This document shows positions 9,001 to 39,653 of a stretch of DNA of 64,000 nucleotides, piece by piece. Source of the stretch: an uncultured bacterium. Lineage in GTDB: Bacteria; Cyanobacteriota; Cyanobacteriia; Cyanobacteriales; Chroococcidiopsidaceae. Made by a program: the position numbers and the translations under genes. The stretch is taken from positions 13,149 to 77,148 of the forward strand of contig CAXUIG010000002.1 in assembly GCA_964250845.1 (NCBI GenBank), read 5' to 3'. Under the pieces are notes generated by a model. It saw nothing but the letters and a program-made list of their open reading frames with translations. It made no database searches and was not told the DNA's origin. Within the stretch, counting starts at the first letter, position 1. Every line of letters begins with the position of its first letter.

Positions 9001-12000
9001 GATTGTCGATGCGTCCTAAATACTCCAACTCGCCATTGGGCAAATAACGCGCTAAGTCACCTGTTTTATATAATTTTGAATTTTGAATTTTGAATTTTGA
9101 ATTGTCAAAGGGATTAGAGATAAACCTTTGTGCTGTGAGTTCAGGACGATTGAGATAGCCACGCGCCACCCCAGCACCACCAACGTACATTTCACCAGGA
9201 ACTCCAATCGGCACTGGCTGTAAATGTTCATCTAGCAGATACACCTGTAAGTCGGGAATCGGACGACCAATCACACTTGCTGTGCCATTCAAATCGGCTT
9301 TGCTCAATGGACGGTAGGTGACGTGTACAGTGGTTTCCGTAATCCCGTACATATTCACTAACAGGGGTGAGCGATCGCCGTGGCGTTCAAACCAAGGCTG
9401 CAAACTCTTCAGTTCTAAAGCTTCTCCACCGAAAATAACCAAGCGCAAGTTCAAGTCGCCAATAGTTACTTGAGATTGTTCTGCTTGAATTAACTGGCGG
9501 AAGGCTGAAGGTGTTTGATTGAGAATTGTTACTTTCTCTTGACACAATAATTGATAGAACGATTCGGGTGATCGCGTCACTAAGTAAGGCACTACTACCA
9601 GTCGTCCACCGTACAGCAGAGCGCCCCAAATTTCCCAAACAGAGAAGTCGAAGGCGTAGGAGTGGAACATTGTCCACACGTCTTGAGCGTTGAAGTTATA
9701 CCAGGAGTTTGTCGCTGCAAACAGACGAACTACATTTGAGTGGTTAACTAAGGTGCCTTTCGGTTGACCTGTAGATCCTGATGTGTAAATGACATAAGCT
9801 AAGTTGTCATTTGTAGAGCCACTAATAAGATTGTCTTTACTTTCGGTAGATATGTCTTCCCAGTCTTTATCTAAGCAGACTACACGCGCCCCATGTTCCG
9901 GTAAACTAGTGAGCAATTTCTCTTGAGTCAACAGGACTGATACCTGTGAATCATTCAGCATATATGCCAAACGGTCTTGAGGATAGTCTGGGTCAAGTGG
10001 CACATAAGCCCCACCAGCTTTGAGAATACCAAGTAGTCCCACCAGCATTTCCAGCGATCGTTCCACACACAACCCGAGCAGCACCTCCGCTCCCACGCCC
10101 AAAGACTTCAGGTAGTGCGCCAACTGGTTAGCGCGAGTATTTAACTGCTGGTAAGTCAGTTGTCGATTTTCAAACACCACAGCTACAGCATCGGGGGTAC
10201 GCTCTACCTGCTCCTCAAACAACTGATGGATACACTTATCAAAAGGATAATCTGCTTGGGTCGAGTTCCACTCAACTAACAACTGATGCTGCTCAACTTG
10301 TGTCAGCAAAGGCAATTGCGAAATCCGCTGCATAGGGTTAGCAACAATACCTTCCAGCAAGGTAACAAAATGCCCAGTCATCCGCTCAATTGTGCTTGCA
10401 TCAAATAAATCAGTACTATACTCCCATACACCCACCAGTCCATCAGCAGTGTTCTGCATTAATAAAGACAAATCAAACTTGGCAGTTGCGCCTGATGCTG
10501 GCAAAGAGGTGATAGTTAACCCAGCAAGCTCTACTTCAGATATGGGCGCATTCTGGAGAGCAAACATCACCTGGAATAGTGGTGTATAGCCCAGATCCCG
10601 TTGGGGCTGCAATGCTTCCACCAGCATTTCAAAAGGCAAGTCCTGATGAGCATACGCTCCTAAAGCTATTTCCCGAACACGAAGGAGTAATTCGTTAAAA
10701 GTGGGGTGGCCTGCCAAGTTGGTACGCATGACTAAAGTATTGACAAAAAAGCCAATTAACCCCTCTATCTCACTACGATTACGGTTGGCAATGGGAGACC
10801 CCACTAAAATGTCTGATTGTCCTGTGTAGCGGTAAAGTAGGGTATCAAACGCTGCCAACAGCGTCATGAACAGCGTCACTCCTTGTTGCTGGCTTAGTTG
10901 CGTGAGTCCATCAGTGAGATCAAAGGAGAGTACAAACTTTTGATATGCCCCTGCGAAAGTCTGCACAGCAGGTCTGGGTCGGTCTGTGGGTAAGGACAAC
11001 AAAGCTGGTGCATTTGTTAGTTGTTGTTGCCAGTAACTCAGTTGAGTTTGCAGTACATCCCCTTGCAACCACTGTCGCTGCCAGATGGCAAAATCTGCAT
11101 ACTGAATCGGCAGTGGCGCTAACGGTGAAGGCTGACCTTGAGAATAAGCATTGTACAGTGCTGCTAATTCTTGCACAAACACACCCATTGACCAGGCATC
11201 AGAGACAACATGGTGCATACACACTAACAATACTTTTTCTGTCTCGGACAGCACAATTAATGTTGCTCTGACTAATGGTTGGTTTGCTAGGTCAAACGGT
11301 TGAATAGCTTGTTGCTGCGCTAATTGCTGTGTAGCAATTTCTTGCTCGCTTGTTGGCAGATGTTGCCAGTCAATAATTGATAGTGTCCAATTTGTTCGTA
11401 TTTGAATGATTTGAGAAGGTTTTCCATCAACTATGACGAAGTTGGTGCGTAACGCTTCATGGCGAGAAATTATTGCTCGCAAGCTTTGTTCTAAGGCAGC
11501 TCGATTGAGAGTTCCTACTAGACGCAAAGCTATAGGTAAGTTGTATAAGGGGCTGTTCGGCTGTAACTGGTCTAAAAACCACAGACGCTGTTGGGCAAAC
11601 GATAGTGGTGATTGAGCATTCTTTGCTCTTGCTAAGATAGGTGGAGAAGTTAGTTCTAAGTCCTGTTGCTGCAAACGTTGAATGTTTTGGGAAAATTCCG
11701 CAACTGTTGGTGCAGTAAATAAGCTACGCAACGGTAGTTCTACTTTCAAGCTAGTACGCACGCGGGAGATGAGTTGCGTTGCTAGCAGCGAGTGTCCTCC
11801 GAGTTCAAAGAAGTTATCATGTATGCCTACTTGCTCTACTTTCAGCACTTTTGCCCAAATTAGTGACAAGATTTCTTCGATTGGGTTACGTGAGGCGACA
11901 AATTTGTCTTTTCGTTCGCTGTGTAAATTTGGTGTGGGCAAAGCGCGGCGGTTTACTTTGCCGCTAGGAGTTAGTGGCAAGGACTCCAAGATTACAAAAG

Positions 12001-15000
12001 CCTGGGGCACCATGTAGTCTGGGAGTTTTGCTTTGAGGAATTGCCGCAGTTCACTGATTGTGGGTGTACAGTCCTGATGTGCTACCACGTAGGCAACTAA
12101 GCGTTTATCACCTGGGGTATCTTCGCGGGCAATGATACAAGATGCTTGCACATCGCCATGCTGGCTCAGTACTGCTTCAACCTCGCCCAATTCAATGCGG
12201 AAACCTCGGATTTTTACCTGATTGTCAATGCGTCCCAAATATTCAATATTGCCATCACTTAAATAGCGTGCTTTATCCCCGGTTTGGTAGAGGCGGGAAT
12301 GGGGGTAGTTGCTAAAGGGGTTGGGGATAAATTTCTGTTTTGTTAACTCTGGTCGGTTGAAATAACCCCGCGCTAAAGGGGTACCACTAATGTGCAATTC
12401 TCCTGGCACACCGATAGGTACAGGCTGTAAATATTTATCTAAGATGTATATCTGTGTATTAGCAATTGGTCGCCCAATGGGAGGAAGTAGCGGCCAATTC
12501 TCCACTGAATTAGTCAGAGTAAAAGTGGTGACGGCATGGCTCTCCGATGGCCCATAATGATTGTGCAAAGTACAATTAGTCAGTTGGCTTAACCAATGAG
12601 AAATGGCGGGAGTAATCTGCAACTGTTCGCCAGCAGTAATGATTTCCCGTAGATTACTCGTCACTGATTCACTACCAACATATGCTTCAGCTAGTTGCTG
12701 CAAGGCAACAAAGGGGAGAAACAGTCTCTCAACAGCTTGTTCTTGGATAAAACCTAACAAAGCTGATGCATCTCGGCGCAATTCCTCCCCAATTAAGAAC
12801 AATGTGCCTCCAGAACACCAGGTAGAGAATATTTCTTGGAAGGAGACATCAAAGCTGATAGGAGCAAATTGCAGGGTTTTTGCTCCACGAGAAATTTTCA
12901 TGTTTTCCAGGTGCCACAGGATCAGATTGCAAAGGGCAAGCTGATTCATAGCTACACCCTTAGGCTGACCTGTAGAACCGGAGGTGTAAATTATATAAGC
13001 TAAGTTATTCGCTTGTACACCTGTGGTGGGATTTTCCTGACTCAACTGGGAAATCAGTTGCCAGTCAATATCTAAGCAAACAAGATGTGGTTTGTGCTGG
13101 GGAAGTCTGTCGAGGAGTGATTGCTGGGTCAGCAACACTGAAACTTGAGCATCTTCTAACATGAAACTCAGGCGTTCAGTTGGATACTCTGGGTCAAGTG
13201 GTACATAAGCCCCACCTGCCTTAAGAATTCCTAACAGTCCCACGACCATTTCTAAAGAACGCTCGACACACACACCGACCAACACATCAGCTCCCACACC
13301 CAAAGATTTCAGGTAGTGCGCCAACTGGTTAGCGCGGCAGTTCAATTGGTAGTAAGTCAGTTGTTGATTTTCAAACTCCACCGCTACAGCATTGGGTGTA
13401 CGCTCCACCTGCTCCTCAAACAACTGATGAATACACTTATCTTGGGGATAATCCGCCTGAGTATTGTTCCACTCCACTAATAACTGCTGTTGCTCAACTT
13501 GTGTCAGCAGGGGCAATTGGGAAATTTGCTGAATAGGGTTAGCAATAATACCTTCAAGCAACGTCACAAAATGACCCGCCATCCGCTCGATAGTGCTAGC
13601 ATCAAACAAGTCAGTGTTGTATTGCCACACACCTACCAGCCCAGTACTAGTCTTTTTAATGAATAAAGTCAAATCAAACTTGGCAGTTGTCCTTTCTGTC
13701 GCTAATGGACTGACAGTTAACCCAGTCAGTTCTACTTCAGATATGGGCGCATTTTCGAGGACAAACATTACCTGAAACAGTGGTGTATGACTCAGGTCTC
13801 GTTGTGGCTGCAAAACTTTAACCAACTCCTCAAACGGGAGGTCTGGATGAGCGTAAGCTTGCAGTGTCAGTTGCCGCACTCGGTTCAGCAACTGTTGAAA
13901 GCTGGGATTGCCTGACAAATCGGTACGTAGTACTAAAGTGTTGACAAGAAAGCCAATTAACCCTTCAAGTTCCAAGTGATCGCGTTTAGCAATGGGCGTG
14001 CCCACTACAATGTCATCGGAGCCTGTATAACGATAAAGCAAGGTAACAAATGCTGCGAACAGCGTCATGAATAGGGTGGCTCCCTCTTGCCTAGTAAAAT
14101 TGGCAAGCGCTTCACTCAGTTCAATTGAAAGTTCGACACTTTGGAGTGCGCCCCGGAAAGTTTGAATGGCTGGTCTAGGTCTGTCTGTGGGTAATTCTAG
14201 TAAGGTAGGAGCGTTTTTGAGTAGTTGCTTCCAGTAGTCAAGCTGCGTTTGGAGTGCTTCTGTTTGCAACGACTGCCGTTGCCAAATAGCAAAGTCGGCA
14301 TACTGAATTGGTAACTCAGGTAGCTCTGGGGACAATTTATTGCAGAGGGCTGAGTAAATGGTTCCTAATTCCTGCATCAATACGCCCATTGACCAACCGT
14401 CAAAGACAATGTGGTGTATTGTTAGTAGCAAGACGTGTTCTACCTCTGTGAGTTTAACCACAGAAGCTCGGATTAAAGGAGAACTAGCAAGGTCAAAGGG
14501 TCGAGTAGCTTCTGCCGTGGCTAATTGTTGACAAACAATTTTTCTTTCACTTTCAAGTAGTTCTGTTAGGTCTACTACTGGAACACTTAAAGTTAAGCTG
14601 TCAGCAATTACTTGGACTGGCTGCTCGTTGATGGTGCGGAAGTTGGTACGTAAGGCTTCGTGGCGGGCGATAATTTTGTTGAGGCTTTGCTCTAGCGCCA
14701 CGACGTTCAAGTAACCATGAAGTTTTAGAGCTGCTTGTTCGTTGTAGAAGGGGTTATCTGGTTCCAACTGGTTTAATAACCAGAGTTGTTCTTGGGCAAA
14801 AGACAAAGGTAAGTTCTGAGGACGCTCGGCTTTGATTGGGTGTAAATCTGTAGCGGTGGCGATCGCATTTTTCTGGTGCAGCAACAAAATAAGTTCTGCT
14901 TTATACTTAACCAGTAAATCACGAGTTTCTGGTGTCAATACTCCTTTTGGCGCATTAACACGCAACTGCTCACCTTCAACCCACAACTTCACACCCTGCT

Positions 15001-15034
15001 GCGAAAGTTCAGCTACAAATTGCTTGATATTCAC
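1..15034 (-). CDS. Non-ribosomal peptide synthetase. N-terminus is complete; C-terminus runs off the left window edge (at least 5011 codons). Domains: TubC-like dock-C-A(Pro-like)-T / C-A(Thr)-T / C*(DCL-like)-A(Ile/Val-like)-T / C-A(unassigned, acidic pocket)-T-E / C(DCL)...
   Basis: Absent from the ORF track because there is no in-frame stop inside the window. I translated the minus strand from GTG at 15034 (GGAGG at 15045-15049): VNIKQFVAELSQQGVKLWVEGEQLRVNAPKGVLTPETRDLL... (docking-domain-like), then LPLSFAQEQLW and HHIVFDGWS (C). T-domain cores: FFELGGHS near 11810 and 5370, FFALGGDSIRSIQV near 8560-8600, FFELGGDSILSIQ near 2160. E domain: HHLVVDGVSW near 1600 and EGHGRE near 1190. The next C starts IEEIYPLSPMQQGMLF near 560, with HHLLLDGWS near 150. 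Hand-read 10-residue A-domain codes: DVQFIAHAVK, DFWNIGMVHK, DAFFLGVTFK, DAENIGAITK. Confidence 0.93.
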   Translation of the reverse strand, partial: MNIKQFVAELSQQGVKLWVEGEQLRVNAPKGVLTPETRDLLVKYKAELILLLHQKNAIATATDLHPIKAERPQNLPLSFAQEQLWLLNQLEPDNPFYNEQAALKLHGYLNVVALEQSLNKIIARHEALRTNFRTINEQPVQVIADSLTLSVPVVDLTELLESERKIVCQQLATAEATRPFDLASSPLIRASVVKLTEVEHVLLLTIHHIVFDGWSMGVLMQELGTIYSALCNKLSPELPELPIQYADFAIWQRQSLQTEALQTQLDYWKQLLKNAPTLLELPTDRPRPAIQTFRGALQSVELSIELSEALANFTRQEGATLFMTLFAAFVTLLYRYTGSDDIVVGTPIAKRDHLELEGLIGFLVNTLVLRTDLSGNPSFQQLLNRVRQLTLQAYAHPDLPFEELVKVLQPQRDLSHTPLFQVMFVLENAPISEVELTGLTVSPLATERTTAKFDLTLFIKKTSTGLVGVWQYNTDLFDASTIERMAGHFVTLLEGIIANPIQQISQLPLLTQVEQQQLLVEWNNTQADYPQDKCIHQLFEEQVERTPNAVAVEFENQQLTYYQLNCRANQLAHYLKSLGVGADVLVGVCVERSLEMVVGLLGILKAGGAYVPLDPEYPTERLSFMLEDAQVSVLLTQQSLLDRLPQHKPHLVCLDIDWQLISQLSQENPTTGVQANNLAYIIYTSGSTGQPKGVAMNQLALCNLILWHLENMKISRGAKTLQFAPISFDVSFQEIFSTWCSGGTLFLIGEELRRDASALLGFIQEQAVERLFLPFVALQQLAEAYVGSESVTSNLREIITAGEQLQITPAISHWLSQLTNCTLHNHYGPSESHAVTTFTLTNSVENWPLLPPIGRPIANTQIYILDKYLQPVPIGVPGELHISGTPLARGYFNRPELTKQKFIPNPFSNYPHSRLYQTGDKARYLSDGNIEYLGRIDNQVKIRGFRIELGEVEAVLSQHGDVQASCIIAREDTPGDKRLVAYVVAHQDCTPTISELRQFLKAKLPDYMVPQAFVILESLPLTPSGKVNRRALPTPNLHSERKDKFVASRNPIEEILSLIWAKVLKVEQVGIHDNFFELGGHSLLATQLISRVRTSLKVELPLRSLFTAPTVAEFSQNIQRLQQQDLELTSPPILARAKNAQSPLSFAQQRLWFLDQLQPNSPLYNLPIALRLVGTLNRAALEQSLRAIISRHEALRTNFVIVDGKPSQIIQIRTNWTLSIIDWQHLPTSEQEIATQQLAQQQAIQPFDLANQPLVRATLIVLSETEKVLLVCMHHVVSDAWSMGVFVQELAALYNAYSQGQPSPLAPLPIQYADFAIWQRQWLQGDVLQTQLSYWQQQLTNAPALLSLPTDRPRPAVQTFAGAYQKFVLSFDLTDGLTQLSQQQGVTLFMTLLAAFDTLLYRYTGQSDILVGSPIANRNRSEIEGLIGFFVNTLVMRTNLAGHPTFNELLLRVREIALGAYAHQDLPFEMLVEALQPQRDLGYTPLFQVMFALQNAPISEVELAGLTITSLPASGATAKFDLSLLMQNTADGLVGVWEYSTDLFDASTIERMTGHFVTLLEGIVANPMQRISQLPLLTQVEQHQLLVEWNSTQADYPFDKCIHQLFEEQVERTPDAVAVVFENRQLTYQQLNTRANQLAHYLKSLGVGAEVLLGLCVERSLEMLVGLLGILKAGGAYVPLDPDYPQDRLAYMLNDSQVSVLLTQEKLLTSLPEHGARVVCLDKDWEDISTESKDNLISGSTNDNLAYVIYTSGSTGQPKGTLVNHSNVVRLFAATNSWYNFNAQDVWTMFHSYAFDFSVWEIWGALLYGGRLVVVPYLVTRSPESFYQLLCQEKVTILNQTPSAFRQLIQAEQSQVTIGDLNLRLVIFGGEALELKSLQPWFERHGDRSPLLVNMYGITETTVHVTYRPLSKADLNGTASVIGRPIPDLQVYLLDEHLQPVPIGVPGEMYVGGAGVARGYLNRPELTAQRFISNPFDNSKFKIQNSKLYKTGDLARYLPNGELEYLGRIDNQVKIRGFRIELGEIEALLASHPAIWESVVVVREDEPGNKRLVAYVVPETEQSPTAAELRRFLKQKLPEYMVPSAFVQLEALPLTANGKVDRRALRAPDTARPELEDVFVAPSTPEEKILSAIWAKVLSVEQVGINDNFFALGGDSIRSIQVLSQAKEQGLSFSVQQLFQHQTIHELVQELKTQENDTTKLELTQPFSLISQTDKQQLPNGLEDAYPLAILQMGMIYHSEYSQDSAVYHDIFSFHLKTPLDVQLLQVAVQDLVNHHAVLRTSFELSNFSIPLQLVHQQVEVPLQMEDWCHLNHSEQEEALAAWFEAEKKRHFDWTHPPLVRFFVHRRTQETFNLALSFHHAILDGWSVASMMSELFKRYLSLLDKQVDYVSPQFSIAFRDFVALEQQAIASSETQRYWSEKLNDSTFTKLPRWSSIPTNTNITEIGVQEVTLSPEIFEGLKQLAQSAEVPLKSVLLAAHLRVLNFLSGESDVLTGLAANGRPEQSDGERVLGLFLNTLPFRLQLGGGTWIELVRQVFAAEREMLPHRRYPLAEIQRSLGGESLFETAFNFTHFHVYEQVLGLDNLQLVGGKFFEQTNFTFLAQFSVSPSSSEVGLNLKYDVCELCSEQINRISDYYIKVLAAMANQPQGRYELHSLVSLEERHQLLVEWNQTAVEYPKDKCIHQLFEAQVEQTPNETAVIFGDQHLTYAELNARANQLAHYLQTLGVRPEVLVGLCVERSLEMVVGMLGILKAGGAYVPLDPEYPQERLSFMLEDTQISVLLTQEKLVNKLPNHKACGIYLDTNWDLINQETQQNPTTNIKADNLAYVMYTSGSTGQPKGVSIVHRGVVRLVKQTDYVSFSAKDVIAQASNYAFDAATFEIWGALLQGARLVGVSKDLALAPKDFATFIQAQGISVLFLTTALFNQVAQEVPCAFNTVRELLFGGEAVDPKWVKEVLKNGAPQRLLHVYGPTENTTFTSWYLVQDVPEGATTIPIGRPISNTQIYVLDSQLQPVGVGVPGEVYIAGDGLAKEYLNRPELTQEKFIPNPFSNYPDSRLYKTGDKARYLSDGNIEYLGRIDNQVKIRGFRIELGEIETVLSQHGDVQVSCVIAREDTPGDKRLVAYVVAHQDCTPTISKLRQFLKAKLPEYMVPNAIVILESLPLTPNGKVDRRALPVPDLHSEQKDKYVASRNPIEEMLALLWAQVLKVERVGIHDNFFELGGHSLLATQLVSHIRNILKVELPLRELFARATVAELAHLIGQLQQQNLKLTSPPILPRAKNAELPLSFAQQRLWFLDQFESNSALYNIPLALRLVGTLRVTALEQSLHEIIVRHEALRTNFVIVDGKPSQIIYTETAWRMSVIDWQHLSTTEQEITSQQLVQRQAIQPFDLANQALITATLIVLSETEHVLLVCMHHVVSDGWSMGVFVQELAALYNAYSQGQPSPLAPLPIQYADFAIWQRHWLQGDVLQNQLSYWQQQLADAPALLSLPTDRPRPSVQTFAGAYQKFSLSVELTGRLTKLSQQQGVTLFMTLLAAFDTLLYRYTGQSDILVGSPIANRNRSEIEGLIGFFVNTLVMRTNLAGNPSFSELLSRVRFMAMDAYAHQDLPFEMLVEALQPQRDLSHTPLFQVMFALQNAPISEVELAGLTISSLPAESATAKFDLSLSMQNTTAGLVGVWEYSTDLFDPSTIERMTGHFQTLLEGIVANPRQRISQLPLLTQIEQHQLLVEWNDTQTDYLLDKCIHHLFEQQVQRTPDAVAVVFENQQLTYYQLNCRANQLAHYLQSLGVGADVLVGLCVERSLEMVVGLLGILKAGGAYVPLDPDYPQDRLSFMLEDAQVSVLLTQQHLIGGLPKHQAQLVCLDTDWLLVSKSSQNNLITEVQATNFAYVIYTSGSTGRPKGVLIPHGAIANHCCIIQQAYALVYSDRVLQFASINFDASLEQIFPTLMVGATLVLRTSDVWTLTSFQKIISDFGLTVVNLPTAYWQQLAQEWVKTQVLDGNSQLRLVIVGGDVMLPEYVALWQQSPMSCVRLLNAYGPTETTITATLFEILPQFSEEINLKKIPIGRPLPNKTVYILDRYLQAVPIGVPGELYIGGVGLAKGYLNRPELTTEKFILNPFSTNPHSRLYKTGDLARYLSDGNIEYLGRIDNQVKIRGFRIELGEIEAVLSQHGDLQASCVIAREETPGDKRLVAYVVPHQDYAPTISQLRQFLLHQLPTFMVPHAFVMLESLPLTANGKVDRRALPAPDSRGELEVSFVAPRNQIEEILAQIWAQVLRVEQVGIHDNFFELGGDSILSIQIISRAKQAGLQLTLKQLFAHQTIVELATVANIASVIQIEQGLVTGTLPLTPIQNYLFEQNLPEPHHFNQSFLLSVPSDLKPELLKQVLQQLLLQHDALRLRFTHSDSTWQQIHSAPTDNVAFSQIDLSALPESEQKTAIEAKATSLQASLNLSENLFEVAFFWLGVDKPARLLIVIHHLVVDGVSWRILLEDLQTAYQQLAKGKAIALPAKTTSFKDWSEKLTEYAQSEALKSEVAYWLNESRFAVLSIPVDYTQGVNTVASASTVSVSLNEAQTRALLQDVPKAYNTQINDVLLTALVLVLGKWINSSSVLFNLEGHGREDIIDGVDLSRTIGWFTTIFPVLVELKATENPADALKYIKEKLRAIPNKGIGYGLLRYLSQDEEIAAQLQAFPQAEISFNYLGQFDQLLNTSSWLQLASESAGDNQSVHGERSYLLDINSIITGERLQINWTYSTNVHQHATIEGLAQEFVKTLQGLIAHCSSPESGGYTPSDFSLVKLNQLELDQLLASLALKQGIDQSKCKNIEEIYPLSPMQQGMLFESLYAPDSGVYFEQLSCTLTGKLNVAAFEQAWQKVIAQHSILRTAFVWEQLTQPLQVVYRQVDVNLQTHDWRELSAQEQQQQLEIFLHSQRQQGFQLSQAPLMHLNLIQLSADSYQFIWSSHHLLLDGWSVPLVFKDLLYFYQVILQGETLPDQPTARSYLNYIAWLQKQD
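9072..9104. repeat. Heptanucleotide microsatellite AATTTTG x4 (plus a partial copy) inside the NRPS coding sequence.
   Basis: Perfect copies at 9072-9078, 9079-9085, 9086-9092 and 9093-9099. On the coding strand it encodes ...FDNSKFKIQNSKLYKTGD, in the loop just before A-domain core A7. Confidence 0.9.
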
Positions 15035-15124
15035 AGAATCATTACCTCCAGATTTTTACCTAATTCGTAATTCGTAATAGCCTACGGCAAAGCTTGTGCC
15101 TACGGAATCAAAAAGTATGTTTAC

Positions 15125-18100
15125 TCATATTGCGATTTCTTCTCTATCAATTGCACCTAAGTTTGTATCTGGTTGTGATTGTTTTTCTACCTTTGGCGCT
15201 ATGTCAGCTATTGTGGGAGATTCAAGCAAACTTTTTACAGATAATTGAACAGAAAAAGTCTTTCGTAATCGGGACATAACTTGAACAGCTATTACGGAAT
15301 CTCCTCCCAATTCAAAAAAGTTGTCATGGATTCCTACCTGTTTAATTCCCAACAATTCTTGCCAGATATCGGAAATTTTCTCTTCAAGCTCATTGCGGGG
15401 AGCTACATAGGAATTTGGAAAATCGGGTCTTGAGTGAAGTGTAGATAATTTTTCTGGCTGAAAGATATCCTGCTTTCTTTGTAATGGAATCTGTGATTTA
15501 TGGGCAGTCTCTTTTTGCCCAGAGTTTATGCTAAATGCGGCTGGTGCAGAAGCTTGAGCCATAATAATCTTATGCTCAAACGCTTCAGTTTCAGGAAAAG
15601 CGGCAACTTGAACAAAATCTTGGGCGCGTAGTGCTTCAAACCACTGCTCTTTGGTTATAAAAGGCTGACCTGGGGTGCGTCTTACATCGTCTAAAGGTTT
15701 CAACAGCAAACCCCAACTTATATCAAAGTCTATTTTCGGCTGCGTTATTTCCCACAGTAAGAGGAAGCCGCCAGGAGCTAATAAAGAGCGTACATGGTGG
15801 AGTGTTTGATCTATGTTCCGAGTTGCATGCAACACATTAGAAGCTATGACTACATCAAAGCTATACTTCTCAAACCCTTGCTCAATTGGAGACTTGTCTA
15901 TGTCTAGTAATCGATATTCAACAAATGGATAGTCGTTAAACTTTTGTTGCGCTTGAGTCAGGAAGCCGCTACCAATATCAGTAAAAGTATAGTTGGTTTG
16001 TTTGGATGGCAACACAGGTAATAATGCTTGCGTAGACATACCAGTACCCGCGCCGATTTCCAGAACTCTCAGGTGAACCGATGATGGTAATGACTTGACC
16101 ACTTGTTCCAAGCTGGAGCGCAAGATAGAGTTGTAGTAATTTAGTAATGCCAATTCTGAATTTGAACCGTTGTTTTCCGCTTGGTAAATCAGTTCGTTGA
16201 AAAACTCTAAGGGTTCTTGTTCACCAACAACAACAGCAGCTAAATTTTCGCCACAGCGCTGCACTAAATCTACTGTTAGAGATGTAGCAGCCAATCTCGC
16301 TCTGACTTCTTCTAAAAGTTCATTAATCAAATCTTGCGAACATGGCACTAGCCCAGTAAATAACCCCTCCTGTTGCTCTAGTTGTCCTTGCTCCACTAAT
16401 ATTTGCAACCATCTAGACAACAAGTGTTGATAGCGGGGAGTTATATGACATTGCTCTAACAAGTTCTCCAAAGAATACTTTTCTTCGGCATTGTTAAAAG
16501 CCCCTAACTGCTTGAGTCCAGAGTTGACGTATGCTGTAGATAAACGATCCAAAAACTGTCTGTTTTCCTGATAGTTTAACTCATTGAGTTCTATATTTCT
16601 AACACTTGCTTGCTTTTGACCTGCTTGTATAAGCAATGTCCACAATTGTGATGTTGTGGGTAAGGTTTGCAACTGCCTCCAAGCTGCTTTTTGTGGTGGT
16701 TCAATCCAATAACGTTGGCGCTCAAAGGGATAAGTCGGTAAGGGAAGACGATAATACTCCTCCTGACTATAGAATCCAAACCAATCTACCTTGACCCCAG
16801 CCAGCCAGAGTTGACCTAATGTAGTCAATAAAACACGATTATCCGATTGCTTTTCTTGAGGATGACGTACCGAAGTCAACACCGTTTGTGTGGCTGCTTT
16901 GTCTGGATGCCTTTTGGCTAATGTAGTCAGTGTGTGTCTTGGCCCCACCTCTAGTAAGATTTGCTCAGGTGTTGTCAATAATTTCTCTACACCTTGGGCA
17001 AACAGCACTGTGGAACGCAGATGTTGAGCGTAATAGTCAGGATTGGTGGCTTGCGTGACTGTAATCCAAGTACCAGTCAGGTTGGAGATATAAGGAATTT
17101 TTGGCGGATTTAAGGTAACTTTTTTGACTCGCTCGACAAATGCCTCTAAGATTGGTTCCATCATTTCCGAGTGGAAGGCATGGTTCGTATGCAGAAGGTG
17201 GCATTCAATACTTTGAGCAGCAAGCTGATTTTGGAGTGCATGTACTGCTGCTATGGAGCCGGAAACTACACACTGCAAGGGTTGATTAATTGCTGCTAGA
17301 GAAAGTTCTGGCCCTAATAGGGATTTTACCCTGTCTGCGGGCAGGGGAACAGAAAGCATTGCTCCACTCTCGAGTTGCTGCATCATCTGTCCGCGTGCTG
17401 CTACCAGAGATAAGGCATCTTCTAGGGAAAAAACTCCTGCTAGAGTTGCTGCTACATATTCGCCAATACCGTGACCGATCGCAGCCACAGGATGCACTTC
17501 CCATGACTGCCATAATTTAGCTAGCGCGTACTCAATCACAAAAAGAGTAGGCTGAGCGATCGCTGTTTGTTGAAGTTGCTTCGATGCTTCATCAATCTTT
17601 TCCTCACTGGGGTAGAGAATATGACGTAAATCAAGCTCTAGTAGGGGTTGGAGAATTTCTGAGCAATAATCAACTTGTTCTCGAAATACTGTCTCAGTCT
17701 GGTATATTTCCCGCGCCATGTTGACATACTGAGAACCTTGACCGGGAAACATAAAGACAACAGACCGTTCTGTAATTTCTGTATAATTGGTAAAAACTTG
17801 TTTTGACTCTAAGCTACTGAGAGCTTTAACAGCATCTTCTAATTCGTGACAAATTAACATCCGTCGATGATTAAAACCCCGGCGACCACTACTGAGGGTA
17901 TAAGCTACATCGCCTAAGTTAAGTTCTGGATGCTGTTTTAAATGCGTGATTAAATTAGCTGTTGCCTCCTCAAGAGCATTCGCGCTTTTAGCTGAAAGTA
18001 CCAACAATTGATAATTTCTCCCCTGCTCCCCTGCACAAGATCTCCCCTGCTCTAATACAGGGGCTTCTTCTAAAATTACGTGAGCATTAGTACCCCCGAT

Positions 18101-19387
18101 ACCAAAAGAACTAACCCCAGCACGGCGAGGGGTGTTATTTGTTTTCCATTCAGTCAGAGTTGTATTAACGTAAAAAGGACTGTTGGCAAAATCAATTTTA
18201 GGATTAGGTGTCTCGAAGTGCAAACTAGGAGGCAGCATTCTATGTTGCAGTGCTAATACAGTTTTAATCAAACCTGTTACACCTGCTGCTGTATCCAAAT
18301 GTCCAAAGTTAGTTTTTACCGAACCAATAGCGCAGAAGCCTTTTTTATCAGTACTTTGAGTAAAAGCTTGAGTTAACGCTGCGATTTCAATAGGATCTCC
18401 TATAGGTGTAGCGGTGCCATGAGCTTCGATATAGGAAATTGTTTCGGCATCTACACCAGCTAAAACTTGAGCCTCGCCAATGACTGCTGCTTGACCACTG
18501 ACACTGGGAGCAGTGTAGCCCACTTTCATTGCACCATCATTATTGATCGCCGAGCCTTTAATAATTGCATAGATGTGATCGCGATCTGCGATCGCATCCT
18601 TTAATCTTTTCAAAACAACAATACCGACACCGCTACCGGCAACAGTTCCTTGTGCTTGAGCATCAAAAGTACGGCAGTGTCCATCGGGAGAGAGAATCAT
18701 CTCCGGTTGATGCAAATAACCTGTTTTTTGGGGAATGATGATAGAAACTCCACCAGCTAAAGCCATGTCACATTCACAATTTAATAGACTTTGACAAGCT
18801 AAGTGAACAGCGACCAAAGAAGTAGAACAGGCACTTTGCACATTCACTGCTGGCCCAGTCAAGTTGAGTTTATAAGCAACTCGTGTGGGTAAAAAATCTT
18901 TATCGTTGGAGATTCCTAATTGGAGAGGATCAACTGTCTCTAATAATTGATGATGAGGATAGAGATTATTGAGAAAATAACTATTCATCCCCACACCAGC
19001 ATAAACCCCTATTAAACCATTGTATGTTTGTGGGTCATAACCAGCTTTTTCTATAGCTGACCAAGCCAATTCTAAAAATATGCGTTGTTGCGGATCTATT
19101 AACTCAGCTTCTTTCGCGCTATAAGCAAAGAAATTTGCATCCAACAATTCAATATCTGATAGAACAGCACTAGCTTTTACATAATTAGAATGACTCAGCA
19201 AATCTTGAGAAATGCCAGATTCTAACAATTCTTCATTCGTAAACTGAGATATAGATTCTACCCCATCCCGTAAATTCTGCCAAAAAGACTCATTATCTTT
19301 GGCTCCTGGAAACCGACCAGCAATAGCAATTATTGCTATTTCAGAATTATTAAACTCATTATTATTATTCACAAAATTTGTTGTCAT
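15125..19387 (-). CDS. Type I polyketide synthase module KS-AT-cMT-T (no KR). The AT active-site Ser is replaced by Gly.
   Basis: ORF track, 1420 aa. KS: VQSACSTSLVAVH, EAHGTAT, NFGHLD. AT: GQGSQ, GHGIGE (in place of GHSxGE), HAFH (malonyl-type). cMT: LRVLEIGAGTG. Carrier: FFELGGDSVIAVQV. The start ATG overlaps the upstream NRPS stop (ATGA at 19384-19387). Confidence 0.95.
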   Translation of the reverse strand: MTTNFVNNNNEFNNSEIAIIAIAGRFPGAKDNESFWQNLRDGVESISQFTNEELLESGISQDLLSHSNYVKASAVLSDIELLDANFFAYSAKEAELIDPQQRIFLELAWSAIEKAGYDPQTYNGLIGVYAGVGMNSYFLNNLYPHHQLLETVDPLQLGISNDKDFLPTRVAYKLNLTGPAVNVQSACSTSLVAVHLACQSLLNCECDMALAGGVSIIIPQKTGYLHQPEMILSPDGHCRTFDAQAQGTVAGSGVGIVVLKRLKDAIADRDHIYAIIKGSAINNDGAMKVGYTAPSVSGQAAVIGEAQVLAGVDAETISYIEAHGTATPIGDPIEIAALTQAFTQSTDKKGFCAIGSVKTNFGHLDTAAGVTGLIKTVLALQHRMLPPSLHFETPNPKIDFANSPFYVNTTLTEWKTNNTPRRAGVSSFGIGGTNAHVILEEAPVLEQGRSCAGEQGRNYQLLVLSAKSANALEEATANLITHLKQHPELNLGDVAYTLSSGRRGFNHRRMLICHELEDAVKALSSLESKQVFTNYTEITERSVVFMFPGQGSQYVNMAREIYQTETVFREQVDYCSEILQPLLELDLRHILYPSEEKIDEASKQLQQTAIAQPTLFVIEYALAKLWQSWEVHPVAAIGHGIGEYVAATLAGVFSLEDALSLVAARGQMMQQLESGAMLSVPLPADRVKSLLGPELSLAAINQPLQCVVSGSIAAVHALQNQLAAQSIECHLLHTNHAFHSEMMEPILEAFVERVKKVTLNPPKIPYISNLTGTWITVTQATNPDYYAQHLRSTVLFAQGVEKLLTTPEQILLEVGPRHTLTTLAKRHPDKAATQTVLTSVRHPQEKQSDNRVLLTTLGQLWLAGVKVDWFGFYSQEEYYRLPLPTYPFERQRYWIEPPQKAAWRQLQTLPTTSQLWTLLIQAGQKQASVRNIELNELNYQENRQFLDRLSTAYVNSGLKQLGAFNNAEEKYSLENLLEQCHITPRYQHLLSRWLQILVEQGQLEQQEGLFTGLVPCSQDLINELLEEVRARLAATSLTVDLVQRCGENLAAVVVGEQEPLEFFNELIYQAENNGSNSELALLNYYNSILRSSLEQVVKSLPSSVHLRVLEIGAGTGMSTQALLPVLPSKQTNYTFTDIGSGFLTQAQQKFNDYPFVEYRLLDIDKSPIEQGFEKYSFDVVIASNVLHATRNIDQTLHHVRSLLAPGGFLLLWEITQPKIDFDISWGLLLKPLDDVRRTPGQPFITKEQWFEALRAQDFVQVAAFPETEAFEHKIIMAQASAPAAFSINSGQKETAHKSQIPLQRKQDIFQPEKLSTLHSRPDFPNSYVAPRNELEEKISDIWQELLGIKQVGIHDNFFELGGDSVIAVQVMSRLRKTFSVQLSVKSLLESPTIADIAPKVEKQSQPDTNLGAIDREEIAI
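18017..18063. repeat. Small G-rich dispersed repeat inserted in frame in the KS-AT linker.
   Basis: tctcccctgctcccctgcacaagatctcccctgctctaatacagggg. The 17-nt core tgctcccctgcacaaga (18024-18040) is identical to 27461-27477. It encodes ...EQGRSCAGEQGRN... Confidence 0.7.
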
Positions 19388-22300
19388 TTTTCACCTTTTC
19401 TTTGAGAAAGATACTGTTGCCTAAGTTGTAATTGTTGGTTCCTGAAAGCTTTACTCTCACTAGTAGATTGAGTACGAAAATTATTTTTCTTGATTGGATA
19501 TTCTGTTTCGTTATTTCCTGTTTGGATTTTACTACTCAAAAATTGGCTCAAGTTATGTATATTTGGGTAATTAAACATATCAACTATTGACAGTTCTAAA
19601 CCAAATATTTCTTGTAATTGCTGATTAATCCGTACCAGTAGTAACGAATGACCGCCTAGTTCAAAGAAATTATTATAAATTCCCACCTTTTCTACTTCCA
19701 GTGCTTTTTGCCAAATGCCAGCAATGATTCTTTCTACTTCTGTATTTGGCATTACATAATCTGATAGTTCCTGATGTAAATCAGGGTCAGGCAGAGCACG
19801 ACGGTCTAGTTTGCCATTAGGTGTCAGGGGTAAGGACTCCAGTATCACAAAAGCAGTTGGCACCATATACCCAGGCAGTTTATTGGAAAGGAACTGACGC
19901 AGTTCGCTGGTTGTGGCTGTCACCTCTTTTTGCGGTACTACGTAGGCGACTAAACGCTTATTACCTGAAGTTTCTTCACGGGCAATGACACAACATATCT
20001 GCACATCACCATGTTGGCTCAGTACTGTTTCAATTTCTCCCACCTCGATGCGGAAGCCCCGAATTTTTACCTGATTGTCGATGCGTCCCAGGTATTCAAT
20101 GTTGCCATCCGCTAAATAGCGTGCTAAATCCCCAGTTTTGTAGAGGCGACCAGAGCAAAAGGGGTTGGTAATGAATCTTTCCTGAGTTAGTTCTGGACGG
20201 TTGAGGTAGCCTCTTGCTAACCCAACACCACCGATGTGCAACTCTCCTGGCACACCCACAGGCACTAGTTGCAAATACTCGTCTAAAATGTAAATTTGCG
20301 TGTTGGCGATCGCTCGTCCAATAGAGATTTTCTCGTCGCCATCAGTGCATTTTGCGATTGTGGCACAGACAGTAGCTTCTGTTGGCCCGTAGGCGTTGAA
20401 AAAGTCTCTGTTAGCAGACCACTGCCTGATGAGTTCAACAGAACAAGCTTCTCCGGCTACAATCATAGTCTGCAATGCCGGAAGTTCCTCAATAGGCATA
20501 ACTGCCAGTGCTGATGGTGGTAGCGTGATATGCGTAATACAATAATTGCGTAATCGCTCAATTAACGGTATGCCAGGCAGTAGAGAGTCTTTTGTTCCCA
20601 GGTAAAGTGTTGCCCCTGACCCCAAAGCCATCACAACTTCCCAGATAGAAGCATCAAAACTGAGTGAGGCAAACTGGAGAACGCGACTTGAGGAATGCAA
20701 GCCAAAAGTCTGGATTTGAGCTTGAGCTAAGTTGCACAGTCCGGTATGCTCAACCATCACACCCTTGGGTTTGCCGGTAGATCCTGATGTGTAAATTACA
20801 TTAGCCAGATGAAAAGCTCTGACTTTACTGACGGGATTATCTTGATTGTTGTGGATAATTTGTTCCCATACCTCATCCAAACAGACAAGGTTGGCTTGAT
20901 CCTCAGGCAGTTTGTCAACAAGTCGCTGTTGAGTCAGCAGTACTGAAACTTGAGCATCTTCTAACATGAAGCTCAAACGTTCTTGGGGATACTCAGGATC
21001 GAGTGGCACATAAGCGCCACCCGCCTTAAGAATTCCCAAAAGTCCTATCACCATTAAGAGCGATCGCTCCAGACACAACCCGACCAGCTGATCTGGTTTT
21101 ACACCGAAAGAGCGCAAGTAATGCGCCAACTGATTAGCACGACAATTCAACTGCTGGTAGGTCAGTTGTTGATTTTCAAACACAACTGCTACAGCATGGG
21201 GGGTGCGTTGAACCTGCTCCTCAAACAACTGATGGATACATTTATTCTGGGGATAGTCTGCTATATCATTCCACTCAACGAGTAACTGCTGTTGCTCAGG
21301 TTGTGTCAACAGAGGCAATTGAGAAATTCGCTCTTTGGGATTAGTAACAATACCTTCAAGCAATGTCACAAAATGACCCGTCATTCGCTCAATCGTAGAT
21401 GCATCAAACAAGTCAGTGTTATATGCCCACCACCCCACTAGTCCAGTAGCAGTGTTCTCCATTGCTAAAGTCAAATCAAACTTTGCCGTTGTGCTTGCTG
21501 TCATCAATGGAGTGACACTTAACCCAGTCAACTCTACTTGAGGCATGGGCGAATTTTCAAGGACAAACATCACCTGGAACAGTGGTGTGTGGCCCAGATC
21601 CCGTTCTGGCTGCAATGCTTCCACCAGCATTTCAAAAGGCAAGTCCTGATGAGAGTATGCATCCATCGCCATTTCTCGAACGCGACCCAGTAATTCGCTA
21701 AAGCTAGGATTGCCTGCCAAGTTGGTACGCATCACTAAAGTGTTGACAAAAAAGCCAATTAACCCTTCGATTTCACTGCGATTGCGATTTGCGATCGGCG
21801 AACCAACTAAAATGTCTGATTGTCCTGTGTAGCGGTAAAGTAGGGTATCAAACGCTGCCAACAGCGTCATGAACAAAGTAACTCCTTGTTGCTGGCTCAG
21901 TTGTATAAGCCTACCAGTTAGCTCAAGTGAAAGTGCAAACTTTTGATATGCCCCACAGAAAGTCTGCACAGCTGGTCTAGGTCGGTCAGCTGGTAGCGAC
22001 AATAAAGCTGGTGCGTTTGCCAGTTGTTGTTGCCAATAGGTCAGTTGGCTTTGCAGTACATCTCCTTGCAACCACTGTCGCTGCCAGATGGCGAAATCTG
22101 CGTACTGAATCGGCAGTGGCGCTAACGGTGAGGGCTGACCTTGAGAATAAGCATTGTACAGCGCCGCTAGTTCTTGGACAAACACACCCATTGACCAACC
22201 ATCAGAGACAATGTGATGCATACACACTAACAAAACGTATTTTGTCTCATTCAGTACTACTAATGTCGCCCTGACTAATGCAAGTCTAGCTAGGTCAAAT

Positions 22301-36902: not shown

Positions 36903-36925
36903 ACTTCAACTCGCTAAACACTGCT

Positions 36926-37102
36926 TTAATTATTTAACTGCATAAGCTTTTGAATATTCCTGATTCGTCTAAAGTGAGTCGGGTTTGCATGAAACAGGCA
37001 AAACTTTTCGTAGGCACTCACCCACAGCCTCTCCAGGTGCTCAATCGGGAACTGTCTCAAGGTTTCTGGGTTAGATAATTGGGGCTGTGCGGCAAGGTTC
37101 AT
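36926..37102 (-). CDS. Hypothetical 58-aa protein immediately upstream of the first PKS gene and co-oriented with it.
   Basis: My translation: MNLAAQPQLSNPETLRQFPIEHLERLWVSAYEKFCLFHANPTHFRRIRNIQKLMQLNN, then a stop. It falls below the 60-aa cutoff of the ORF track. The stop lies 23 nt before the PKS ATG. I recognise no motif. Confidence 0.3.
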   Translation of the reverse strand: MNLAAQPQLSNPETLRQFPIEHLERLWVSAYEKFCLFHANPTHFRRIRNIQKLMQLNN

Positions 37103-37248
37103 TTACTTATGATACTAGAAAAAATTATGTGATCAAGTCCCTGACTTAAATCCTTACAATACAATAAACTCATTGAAATTAAAAAACTACGCTGAACTTA
37201 AGTTTACAAATCATCTCACCTTCATCACCAAAATGCAATATAAATTAA

Positions 37249-37309
37249 GACAGTTAAGTGGACAGTTAAGACAGTTAAGCAGATAGTTAAAATATTTAAA
37301 ACAGTTAAT
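37249..37309 (-). promoter_or_regulatory. Array of CTTAACTGT(C) motifs, read on the minus strand, upstream of the PKS-NRPS operon. Candidate transcription-factor binding array.
   Basis: The plus strand shows gacagttaag at 37249-37258 and 37261-37270, and acagttaag at 37271-37279. Degenerate copies are agatagttaa and acagttaat (37301-37309). The same motif, in the same orientation relative to transcription, occurs at 42980-42995 upstream of the LeuB-like gene and at 39654-39680. Confidence 0.45.
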
Positions 37310-37338
37310 CAAGACTAATTAGGTAACTGTAACTAACA

Positions 37339-37362
37339 TAAAAAAAGAGGCATACAGCCTCT
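37339..37362 (-). terminator. Putative intrinsic terminator after the small membrane-protein gene.
   Basis: The minus strand reads agaggc-tgtat-gcctct followed by a run of seven T. This is a 6-bp stem and 5-nt loop, about 95 nt downstream of the stop at 37458. Confidence 0.45.
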
Positions 37363-37457
37363 AGAGCCCAAAAAAGGGCTATCCTGGGATTTTAGTGAAA
37401 GTTTATCTATTACTAGGAAAACCCAAGATAATCACAAGGTGAAAGCCCTGATTTTGC

Positions 37458-37829: not shown

Positions 37830-37957
37830 TACAGTACCTGTTAGTTAGTTAAAATTTTGCCTTTTTTACTTTATCCTACATTTCGGTTGTTGTCATTATT
37901 TATTTGCCATCAAAACATCAGCTGTACAAGTGACACAAGTAAGCGCCCCTGGATGAA

Positions 37958-39523: not shown

Positions 39524-39653
39524 AGTTTTAACTCCTTTATTTACTGGACTAGAAACCTGGGACAGCCATGTTAAACTGGCTCAAAAGTTAAGGTACAAAT
39601 ACAAACTTTACCTGCCCTAACTTTATTAAGTCAAGACATTTACCACCTTCTTT

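What the first reader, a model, noticed from the sequence alone, without database searches (positions are those of the whole stretch)
17468..17470. The acyltransferase nucleophile Ser is Gly (GHGIGE) in the KS-AT-cMT-T module
The AT of the 1420-aa PKS reads AAIGHGIGEYVAA. The universally conserved motif is GHSxG, whose Ser carries the malonyl group. The codon is GGT (minus strand, 17470..17468, residue 640), one transition away from AGT. The rest of the AT (GQGSQ, the Arg in ARGQMMQ, HAFH) and the flanking KS, cMT and T domains look intact.

Three explanations are possible:
- the module is loaded in trans, for example by the other AT in the cluster;
- the cluster is freshly inactivated;
- this is a sequencing error.
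Basis: seen in the sequence. Interest (0 to 1): 0.65.

Follow-up and report, generated by a model that had tools for sequence, protein, structure and literature searches.

The report
Strain-specific dead acyltransferase in PKS module
One Nostoc-type cyanobacterium carries a single-base change that removes the catalytic serine of an acyltransferase domain in an otherwise intact peptide-polyketide gene cluster; all 57 related strains checked keep the serine, so this is most likely a recent natural loss-of-function allele, not a new kind of enzyme.

Summary
Residue 640 of the 1420-aa KS-AT-cMT-ACP protein (15125..19387, minus strand) is Gly, codon GGT at 17470..17468, in AAIGHGIGEYVAA. In solved AT structures this position is the nucleophilic Ser.

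The Gly is private to this genome. All 57 full-length orthologues (76-88% identical) read GHSIGE, including those of the minutumamide and nostopeptolide KVJ3 producer strains. All 37 orthologous loci use AGT there, so the change is one A>G transition.

The rest of the assembly line is intact. It comprises 12,270 codons with no stop, and dN/dS is about 0.33. If the change made the cluster useless, that happened within roughly the last 2% of this lineage's history.

The AT is also the most divergent of the 58 orthologous ATs, with two further private changes (G630E, G817R). The KS, cMT and ACP domains are ordinary. This argues against a lone base-call error and hints weakly at relaxed constraint on the AT alone.

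Best reading: a real, recent mutation that kills cis-loading. Rivals are rescue by trans-loading, module bypass, and a sequencing artefact. No reads or closer relatives were available. Serine-less ATs are already known, so interest is modest.

The parts
17468..17470 (-). Codon GGT = Gly640, at the position of the AT nucleophile Ser (GHSxG reads GHGIG here)
   Evidence: All 37 orthologous loci have AGT. The residue aligns to the Ser of solved ATs.
16790..17758 (-). Full-length acyltransferase domain (residues 544-866). It is malonyl-type (HAFH), with GQGSQ, Arg665 and His739 present.
   Evidence: Pfam PF00698, E=9.8e-52, profile 1-318/319. Best PDB match 4QBU, E=2.3e-79. Motifs.
17498..17500 (-). 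Glu630 (GAA). Orthologues have Gly (GGA) in the SWG(V/I)xP loop, 10 residues before the nucleophile. Private to the window.
   Evidence: Gly is found in 231 of 235 sampled ATs; the three other exceptions (N, N, Q) keep GHS.
16937..16939 (-). Arg817 (AGA). Orthologues have Gly (GGA) in the E(V/I)GPG motif. Private to the window.
   Evidence: Gly is found in 123 of 124 sampled ATs of this subfamily. However, the PKS1 AT of this same window has Lys at the equivalent position.
15125..19387 (-). PKS2: a 1420-aa KS-AT-cMT-ACP module, orthologue of the MinC/NosB-type PKS of the nostopeptolide/minutumamide family
   Evidence: PMC12184294.
18212..19345 (-). Ketosynthase domain with Cys187 (18827..18829) and both His residues intact
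   Evidence: Only 1 conservative deviation (F82L) at 117 ultraconserved positions.
15734..16099 (-). C-methyltransferase core (residues 1097-1218)
   Evidence: No deviations at 28 ultraconserved positions.
15197..15382 (-). Carrier protein (ACP/T) with the phosphopantetheine-attachment Ser1364 (15296..15298). This is the domain the dead AT should load with malonyl.
30192..36902 (-). PKS1: a 2236-aa KS-AT-DH-cMT-KR-ACP protein, the first gene of the operon within the window
34353..35213 (-). AT domain of PKS1, with an intact GHSVGE (Ser658 at 34929..34931) and HAFH. It is the only other AT in the window and a candidate donor for trans-loading.
19384..30195 (-). NRPS_A: a 3603-aa, three-module NRPS feeding PKS2. 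It has a TubC-type N-terminal docking domain and an FkbM-type methyltransferase inserted in module 2.
   Evidence: Synteny is conserved in L001, L003 and L004.
1..15034 (-). NRPS_B: the downstream NRPS with a GTG start at 15034. At least 5011 aa lie in the window (four C-A-T modules, an E domain and the next C domain) before it runs off the window start.
   Evidence: The sister genome's orthologue is 6167 aa.

Best explanation
A real, lineage-specific point mutation (AGT>GGT, Ser640Gly) has removed the nucleophile of the malonyl-specific cis-acyltransferase in the MinC/NosB-type PKS module (KS-AT-cMT-ACP). The module belongs to a nostopeptolide/minutumamide-family NRPS-PKS assembly line.

Without the Ser-His dyad the AT cannot form the malonyl-O-enzyme intermediate, so it cannot load malonyl onto its own ACP (established AT mechanism; the inference for this protein is untested). 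The KS then has no extender unit. The peptidyl chain delivered by the upstream three-module NRPS stalls here, before the step that in orthologous pathways builds a 4-amino-3-oxo-2-methyl acid unit. Any residual flux would depend on adventitious malonylation of the ACP in trans.

The lesion is evolutionarily recent. All other parts of the cluster are intact and show the same purifying selection as in sister genomes. The allele is therefore best seen as a natural null or strongly hypomorphic allele of an otherwise functional cluster.

Shown: the substitution, its uniqueness, its ancestral state, and the intactness and selective constraint of the rest of the cluster. Inferred: loss of AT activity, the stall, and the recency.
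For: The sequence and frame are verified.

Gly640 aligns to the catalytic Ser of solved ATs.

All 57 full-length orthologues and all other homologues have GHS. All 37 orthologous loci use AGT.

The orthologues include the PKS of N. minutum NIES-26, N. linckia NIES-25 and Nostoc sp. KVJ3. Their isolated products contain the ketide-derived Amopa unit (PMC12184294).

Mutation of this Ser is the standard way to inactivate a PKS AT (PMC7327777).

Terminal-branch nonsynonymous/synonymous counts:
- AT: 14/21, typical of the 34 other lineages.
- Whole cluster: dN/dS about 0.33, against 0.26 in the sister.

There are no stops in 12,270 codons. This bounds any neutral period to less than 0.0018 substitutions per site, about 2% of the terminal-branch dS of about 0.10.

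All NRPS, KS, cMT and ACP core motifs are present. The NRPS conserved-site burden (0.69 per domain) lies within the range of other clusters, including the N. minutum locus at 0.89.

The substitution spectrum is ordinary.
Against: No read data or independent assembly of this strain could be found, so the base itself is unverified.

The AT is the lowest-scoring of 58 orthologous ATs in leave-one-out HMM scoring (z=-2.4). It stays the lowest after reverting G640S in silico.

It is the only one of 124 ATs with three deviations at 37 ultraconserved positions.

If G630E and G817R arose after the AT died, the AT has been dead far longer than the stop-free cluster could have been neutral. That would favour a rescued, still-selected pathway.

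GHG ATs also occur in long intact PKS ORFs in metagenomes.
Confidence: 0.55

Rival explanations
1. The AT has been dead for some time, but the module is still in service. Its ACP is malonylated in trans, either by the housekeeping malonyl-CoA:ACP transacylase FabD or by the intact malonyl-type AT of PKS1. The cluster therefore still makes its normal product and remains under selection. The AT persists as a structural scaffold of the KS-AT didomain.
For: Divergence is specific to the AT.
- It is the lowest of 58 orthologous ATs in leave-one-out HMM scoring, while KS, linker, cMT and ACP have z between -0.5 and -0.9.
- It has 3 of 37 ultraconserved positions changed, unique among 124 ATs. The chance of two extra hits is about 0.02.
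- KS has 1 of 117, cMT 0 of 28 and ACP 1 of 11.

The rest of the cluster is clearly not neutral.

An intact HAFH-type AT lies in the same operon.

AT-null modules can be complemented by a trans-acting AT (PMC7327777). From memory, FabD-type complementation of an AT-null DEBS module has also been reported.

GHG ATs sit in long intact multidomain PKS ORFs in metagenomes. In one lineage a GHG AT remnant is retained between 89%-identical orthologues, next to a module with a normal AT.
Against: No orthologue shows the Ser-less state, so this is not a design feature of the family.

The AT's nonsynonymous/synonymous ratio (14/21) is not raised.

GQGSQ, Arg665 and His739 are all retained.

The two extra changes are at positions where polar or basic residues occur in apparently active ATs. 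N or Q occurs at the 630-equivalent in three GHS ATs. Lys occurs at the 817-equivalent in the PKS1 AT. They need not be damage.

No free-standing AT is encoded in the 64 kb.
Confidence: 0.27
2. The G is an artefact: a base-call or consensus error, or a minor allele of a mixed population picked up in the assembly. The organism actually has AGT (Ser).
For: The change is a single transition, seen in a single assembly. The protein's cluster has 1 member on 1 contig, and no Logan or other independent copy exists. The first-stage reader picked this site because it looked anomalous, which favours finding rare errors.
Against: About 37 kb of contiguous coding sequence has no frameshift or stop, so the assembly is not error-prone.

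The lineage's substitution spectrum matches its sisters, with no excess of any class.

Two further private changes at conserved positions lie in the same domain. A single random error would not explain them.

Ser-less ATs appear at about 1-2% in database samples. That is far above plausible per-base error rates, so most such variants are real.
Confidence: 0.1
3. The dead AT turns the module into a pass-through. The peptidyl chain moves from KS to holo-ACP without extension and continues to the downstream NRPS, giving a congener that lacks the C3 ketide unit. This would be a first step towards the module and domain losses that diversify this compound family.
For: [quoted passage not shown] The downstream NRPS remains intact.
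Against: The cMT domain would be useless in a pass-through module. Yet it shows no deviation at conserved sites and an ordinary leave-one-out HMM score.

Nothing shows that the downstream C domain would accept an alpha-aminoacyl donor in place of the beta-keto acyl donor. No product data exist.
Confidence: 0.06
4. The Gly640 AT is still catalytically active through some other nucleophile or a direct-transfer mechanism.
For: There is no direct evidence. The only support is that the binding residues (GQGSQ, Arg665, His739) are retained.
Against: The Ser-His dyad mechanism is universal in this fold, and Ser-to-Ala abolishes activity (PMC7327777). Gly has no side chain. The state is not conserved in any relative.
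Confidence: 0.02

Closest known systems
MinC / NosB-type PKS modules of the minutumamide, nostopeptolide KVJ3 and nostopeptolide A pathways (Nostoc; PMC12184294)
   Same: The domain order is KS-AT-(MT)-ACP. Identity to the proteins of N. minutum NIES-26, N. linckia NIES-25 and Nostoc sp. KVJ3 is 82-83%, and 76-78% to the MT-less form of about 1244 aa. The position is the same: between an upstream NRPS and a downstream NRPS with a TubC-type docking domain.
   Different: Those proteins all have GHSIGE. The flanking NRPSs here differ in module number and content: three modules upstream and at least five downstream. The operon also starts with a KS-AT-DH-cMT-KR-ACP PKS. The product is therefore an uncharacterised relative.
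Naturally Ser-less AT domains in cis-AT PKSs (bengamide, desertomycin, conglobatin, gephyronic acid; as listed in PMC9301873)
   Same: A full-length AT in an intact module lacks the GHSxG serine and is predicted to be inactive.
   Different: Those cases are fixed features of clusters with known products. Here the Ser-less state is private to one genome, and every orthologue retains Ser.
Engineered AT-null modules (Ser-to-Ala in GHSxG) rescued by a trans-acting AT (PMC7327777)
   Same: The same residue is removed. These experiments show both that the lesion kills cis-loading and that an ACP in such a module can be loaded in trans.
   Different: Those are laboratory constructs with a supplied trans-AT. 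Here the substitution is natural, the replacement is Gly, and no dedicated trans-AT gene lies in the window.
TgPKS2 AT3 of Toxoplasma gondii (PMC9301873)
   Same: It is a natural AT inactivated by a single residue in an otherwise normal domain, and can be switched back on by one mutation.
   Different: The switch there is Gln/His at the oxyanion-loop position, not the nucleophile. It is a eukaryotic PKS.

Membership tests
PKS/FabD-type acyltransferase domain (Pfam PF00698) | Full-length sequence homology to the AT fold | tested here: met
   Pfam E=9.8e-52, profile 1-318/319. Matches to 64 solved AT-containing chains; best is 4QBU at E=2.3e-79.
PKS/FabD-type acyltransferase domain (Pfam PF00698) | Nucleophilic Ser in the GHSxG elbow | tested here: not met
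   Gly640 (GGT, 17468..17470) aligns to the Ser of 4QBU and 8XJY.
PKS/FabD-type acyltransferase domain (Pfam PF00698) | GQGxQ oxyanion loop, carboxylate-binding Arg, and catalytic His in the HAFH/YASH motif | tested here: met
   GQGSQ at 549-553, Arg665, HAFH at 736-739.
PKS/FabD-type acyltransferase domain (Pfam PF00698) | Malonyl self-acylation and transfer to ACP | not testable with these tools
   This needs an in vitro assay. It is predicted to be absent.
MinC/NosB-type module of nostopeptolide/minutumamide-family assembly lines | KS-AT-(MT)-ACP single-module protein, highly similar to the family's PKS | tested here: met
   Domain order. Identity to 57 orthologues is 76-88%, including those of the producer strains.
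MinC/NosB-type module of nostopeptolide/minutumamide-family assembly lines | Position between an upstream NRPS and a downstream NRPS that starts with a TubC-type docking domain | tested here: met
   The docking pair MinC/MinD and NosB/NosD is described in PMC12184294.
MinC/NosB-type module of nostopeptolide/minutumamide-family assembly lines | Product containing a gamma-amino-beta-keto(-alpha-methyl) acid unit | not testable with these tools
   No chemistry is available for this strain.
Evolutionarily fixed inactive AT (AT0) in a cis-AT PKS | Catalytic Ser absent | tested here: met
Evolutionarily fixed inactive AT (AT0) in a cis-AT PKS | Ser-less state shared by orthologous clusters, or tied to a known product | tested here: not met
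   All 57 orthologues and all 37 loci have Ser (AGT).
trans-AT PKS module | AT absent or vestigial in the module, plus a free-standing AT gene in the cluster | tested here: not met
   The AT is full length. No stand-alone AT ORF lies in the 64-kb window. The far end of the cluster is outside the window.

The most novel reading that the evidence does not exclude
The module is a natural cis-AT module that has lost its own AT activity but is kept working by trans-malonylation, from FabD or from the AT of another module. This would be a living intermediate on the path from cis-AT to trans-AT architecture, or the first step of the module and domain loss that diversifies the nostopeptolide/minutumamide family. 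GHG-type ATs recur in long intact PKS ORFs in metagenomes, which would then point to an under-recognised class of such modules.
Probability: 0.25. Interest if true: 0.6.

Novelty: new member of a known kind. Interest (0 to 1): 0.3.

Why it matters
For genome mining, this cluster would be scored as complete by domain-level tools. It probably makes little or none of its predicted peptide-polyketide, so the site should be checked before anyone tries to isolate a product.

If the base is real, the strain is a ready-made natural AT-null mutant of a cyanobacterial hybrid assembly line whose orthologues have known products. Comparing it with a G640S revertant would show directly how much a cis-AT module can be served in trans by FabD or by a neighbouring AT. 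It would also show whether such lesions lead to module skipping. Both questions matter for PKS engineering and for understanding how this mix-and-match family loses modules.

If it is simply a null allele, it is ordinary. Loss-of-function alleles of secondary-metabolite clusters are common.

Tried and rejected
1. Independent support for the base. None of four attempts found another copy of this strain, so read-level support could not be approximated.
- An exact look-up of the protein found no contig.
- Its 90% cluster has one member, from NCBI/ENA and not from Logan.
- A 161-aa query around the site returned nothing above 70% identity.
- A 50-nt strain-specific DNA pattern with R at the site found nothing in JGI metagenomes.

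2. Literature motif searches for GHGxG, GHGIG and similar returned only irrelevant hits.

3. Second lesion at the GTG start of the downstream NRPS. I suspected this because the two nearest relatives have ATG. It is rejected: GTG is used in many orthologous clusters, including the N. minutum NIES-26 and N. linckia NIES-25 loci.

4. DNA-damage or systematic-error signature. Rejected: the transition and transversion spectrum on the window branch matches the sister lineages.

5. Cluster-wide decay. Rejected as the main story.
- There are no stops in 12,270 codons.
- The NRPS C and A domain conserved-site burden is within the range of other clusters.
- dN/dS is only slightly above the sister (0.33 against 0.26, Fisher p=0.006).

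6. G630E and G817R as proof of a long-dead AT. Downgraded: N or Q occurs at the first position in ATs that keep GHS, and Lys occurs at the second in the PKS1 AT of this window.

7. Viewing the whole orthologous cluster in the Scytonema HK-05 plasmid annotation failed, because the record is not in the plasmid collection.

8. I did not run structure prediction. The tool returns no coordinates, so distances to the active site could not be measured.
Full report
**Observation**

On the minus strand the sequence reads GCG ATC GGT CAC GGT ATT GGC GAA, which is A-I-G-H-G-I-G-E. GGT at 17470..17468 is residue 640 of the 1420-aa ORF 15125..19387.

Pfam gives the domain order KS (15-392), KS-AT linker, AT (544-866, profile 1-318/319, E=9.8e-52), C-methyltransferase (about 1097-1218) and carrier protein (1336-1397).

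phmmer against PDB sequences aligns Gly640 with the nucleophilic Ser of solved ATs (ZmaA 4QBU, IGYSFGEY; PKS 8XJY, IGHSLGEW).

GQGSQ, Arg665, HAFH, the KS Cys/His/His residues, the cMT SAM-binding motif and ACP Ser1364 are all present.

**Context**

The gene lies in a minus-strand operon:
- PKS1 (30192..36902): KS-AT-DH-cMT-KR-ACP.
- NRPS_A (19384..30195): three modules, with a TubC-type docking domain and an FkbM-type methyltransferase.
- PKS2: the gene in question.
- NRPS_B: GTG start at 15034, more than 5000 aa, running off the window start.

The apparent lack of ORFs in 1..15000 is only because the ORF lister omits ORFs that run off the window.

The plus strand from about 43 kb carries a second, unrelated NRPS cluster.

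**Relatives**

A search of the 5.8-billion-protein collection found 57 full-length orthologues, 76-88% identical. They come from Nostoc, Brasilonema, Tolypothrix, Calothrix, Stigonema and others. It also found versions of about 1244 aa that lack the MT.

Every one of them reads GHSIGE. The window protein is the only GHG among the 120 listed.

Synteny (NRPS, then this PKS, then a large NRPS) is conserved in the nearest genomes.

In all 37 orthologous loci recovered from genome assemblies the Ser codon is AGT. The window therefore differs by one A>G transition.

The orthologues include the proteins of Nostoc minutum NIES-26, N. linckia NIES-25 and Nostoc sp. KVJ3. Minutumamides and nostopeptolide KVJ3 were isolated from these strains. 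[quoted passage not shown]

So the family's module has a plausible, product-backed role, and in the producer strains the AT has its Ser.

**Age of the change and state of the cluster**

The window is sister to GCA_003429145.1 (88% aa identity) on a long terminal branch. I counted codon changes on terminal branches by Fitch parsimony.

| Region | Window (nonsyn/syn) | Sister (nonsyn/syn) |
|---|---|---|
| PKS2, whole gene | 84/83 | 73/101 |
| PKS2, AT only | 14/21 | 15/30 |
| Upstream NRPS | 129/185 | 139/198 |
| Downstream NRPS | 260/283 | 208/326 |

The AT ratio lies in the middle of the 34 other lineages, which range from 0.24 to 1.6.

Overall dN/dS is about 0.33, against 0.26 in the sister (Fisher p=0.006). 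This is a slight rise and far from neutrality.

The four assembly-line ORFs hold 12,270 codons without a stop. About 4.5% of random substitutions would create one. Any neutral period is therefore shorter than 0.0018 substitutions per site (95% bound), about 2% of the terminal-branch dS of about 0.10.

The conserved-site burden of the NRPS C and A domains (0.69 per domain) is within the range of other clusters; the N. minutum locus has 0.89.

For contrast, another GHG AT found in passing (P0242) sits in a PKS gene shattered into fragments of 55-258 aa. That is what long-standing decay looks like.

**Is the AT specifically degraded?**

Partly.
- Among 58 orthologues the window has 11 private substitutions at otherwise invariant columns. 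Four are in the AT: A614T, G630E, S640G and G817R. Those in the other domains are conservative.
- In leave-one-out HMM scoring the window's AT is the lowest of 58 (z=-2.4). Its KS, linker, cMT and ACP are unremarkable (z from -0.5 to -0.9).
- Reverting G640S in silico leaves it the lowest.
- At 37 positions that are at least 97% conserved in 199 related ATs, the window deviates at three. Of 124 full-coverage ATs, 100 deviate at none, 19 at one, 4 at two, and only the window at three.
- KS has 1 of 117, cMT 0 of 28 and ACP 1 of 11.

The two extra hits are independent of how the site was chosen. Their chance probability is about 0.02.

The caveat is that both positions tolerate polar or basic residues in ATs that keep GHS. 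N or Q occurs at the 630-equivalent, and Lys occurs at the 817-equivalent in the PKS1 AT of this same window. They cannot be called damaging.

I take this as an argument against a lone base-call error, and as a weak hint of relaxed constraint on the AT alone.

**Artefact?**

No reads and no independent assembly of this strain were found.

Several points argue against an error:
- There is no frameshift in about 37 kb of coding sequence.
- The substitution spectrum is like the sisters'.
- Other private changes lie in the same domain.
- Ser-less ATs appear at about 1-2% in database samples, far above per-base error rates.

I put the chance of an artefact at about 10%.

**Mechanism**

In this fold the Ser-His dyad forms a malonyl-O-Ser intermediate that is passed to the ACP thiol. 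Replacing the Ser is the standard way to make an AT-null module, and such modules can be rescued by a trans-acting AT (PMC7327777).

With Gly640 the module cannot load itself. The KS would then hold the tripeptidyl chain with no extender unit.

The outcome could be a block, a leak through trans-malonylation (by FabD, or by the intact HAFH-type AT of PKS1 at 34353..35213), or pass-through to the next NRPS.

[quoted passage not shown] They are linked to skipping or early termination (PMC9301873).

A degenerate-pattern scan of JGI metagenomes found 15 stretches encoding GHGIGEYVAA.
- Several lie in long intact ORFs with full-length ATs, for example KS-AT-ACP, KS-AT-DH-ER-KR and KS-AT-KR-ACP.
- Others are vestigial ATs.
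- In one lineage the GHG remnant is retained between 89%-identical orthologues, next to a module with a normal AT.

So Ser-to-Gly ATs recur and can persist. Part of the reason is probably that AGY Ser is one transition from Gly, and Gly fits the tight nucleophile elbow (the latter is inference).

**Verdict**

| Explanation | Probability |
|---|---|
| Real, recent, strain-specific null or hypomorphic allele of the cis-AT in an otherwise functional cluster | about 0.55 |
| Older AT loss with the pathway kept going by trans-loading | about 0.27 |
| Sequencing or consensus artefact | about 0.10 |
| Pass-through (module skipped) | about 0.06 |
| Gly640 AT still active | about 0.02 |

The kind of thing, an AT lacking its catalytic Ser, is already known. 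This is a new instance in a known cluster family. It is of practical use for genome mining, and as a natural AT-null test case if it is confirmed.

Noticed in passing
window 26317..26319 (-), NRPS_A residue 1293: The second condensation domain of NRPS_A reads HHVVSDD where the HHxxxDG core motif is expected (GAC here; GGC or GGT in all orthologues). Among 166 C-domain instances from this cluster family the last motif position is G in 143, A in 29, S in 1, F in 1 and D in 1. The single D is this window. It is a second private, unusual change in a catalytic core motif of the same assembly line.
   Followed up: partly
window 43223..46064 (+) and 47296..>64000 (+): A second, divergently placed cluster. 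It has an isopropylmalate-dehydrogenase-like gene and a fused aconitase/isomerase-like gene, followed by NRPS genes of 2190 aa, 1077 aa and more than 2311 aa. From memory this resembles the homo-amino-acid (hph) genes plus anabaenopeptin-type synthetase of Nostoc. This was not tested beyond Pfam.
   Followed up: partly
window 30192..36902 (-) and upstream 36903..43200: PKS1 begins directly with a KS (residue 23 onwards). No loading module, FAAL/CAL or starter ACP is encoded upstream in the window. The starter-unit source of this assembly line is not visible here.
   Followed up: no
window 39981..41476 (both strands) and 41922..42470 (+): There are several short ORFs with Uma2-family (putative restriction endonuclease) N- or C-terminal sequence, apparently fragments. 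Next to them lies one intact 182-aa Uma2 gene.
   Followed up: no
window 37958..39523 (-): A 521-aa protein with a C-terminal Peptidase_S74 domain (intramolecular chaperone of endosialidase/tail-fibre type) sits immediately upstream of the PKS operon.
   Followed up: no
L086-L100 (JGI metagenome contigs); L085: GHGIGEYVAA-encoding ATs recur in metagenomes, with 15 stretches found.
- L086, L094, L095, L096 and L100 have full-length ATs in long intact multidomain PKS ORFs.
- L087/L089 (89% identical) and L091/L098 (68% identical) both keep GHG.
- L089 is a bimodular PKS whose first AT is a GHG remnant and whose second AT is normal.
- L085 (P0242) is a GHG AT inside a PKS gene broken into many fragments.
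   Followed up: partly
window 1..36902 (-), whole operon: The window lineage shows a slightly higher dN/dS than its sister across the cluster (about 0.33 against 0.26, Fisher p=0.006). It also has more radical replacements in part of NRPS_A (32 against 12). Their clustered distribution suggests recombination tracts rather than uniform noise.
   Followed up: partly
window 23215..23790 (-), NRPS_A residues 2136-2327: An FkbM-family methyltransferase domain is inserted in the second module of NRPS_A. It is conserved in the orthologous clusters of L001, L003 and L004.
   Followed up: no
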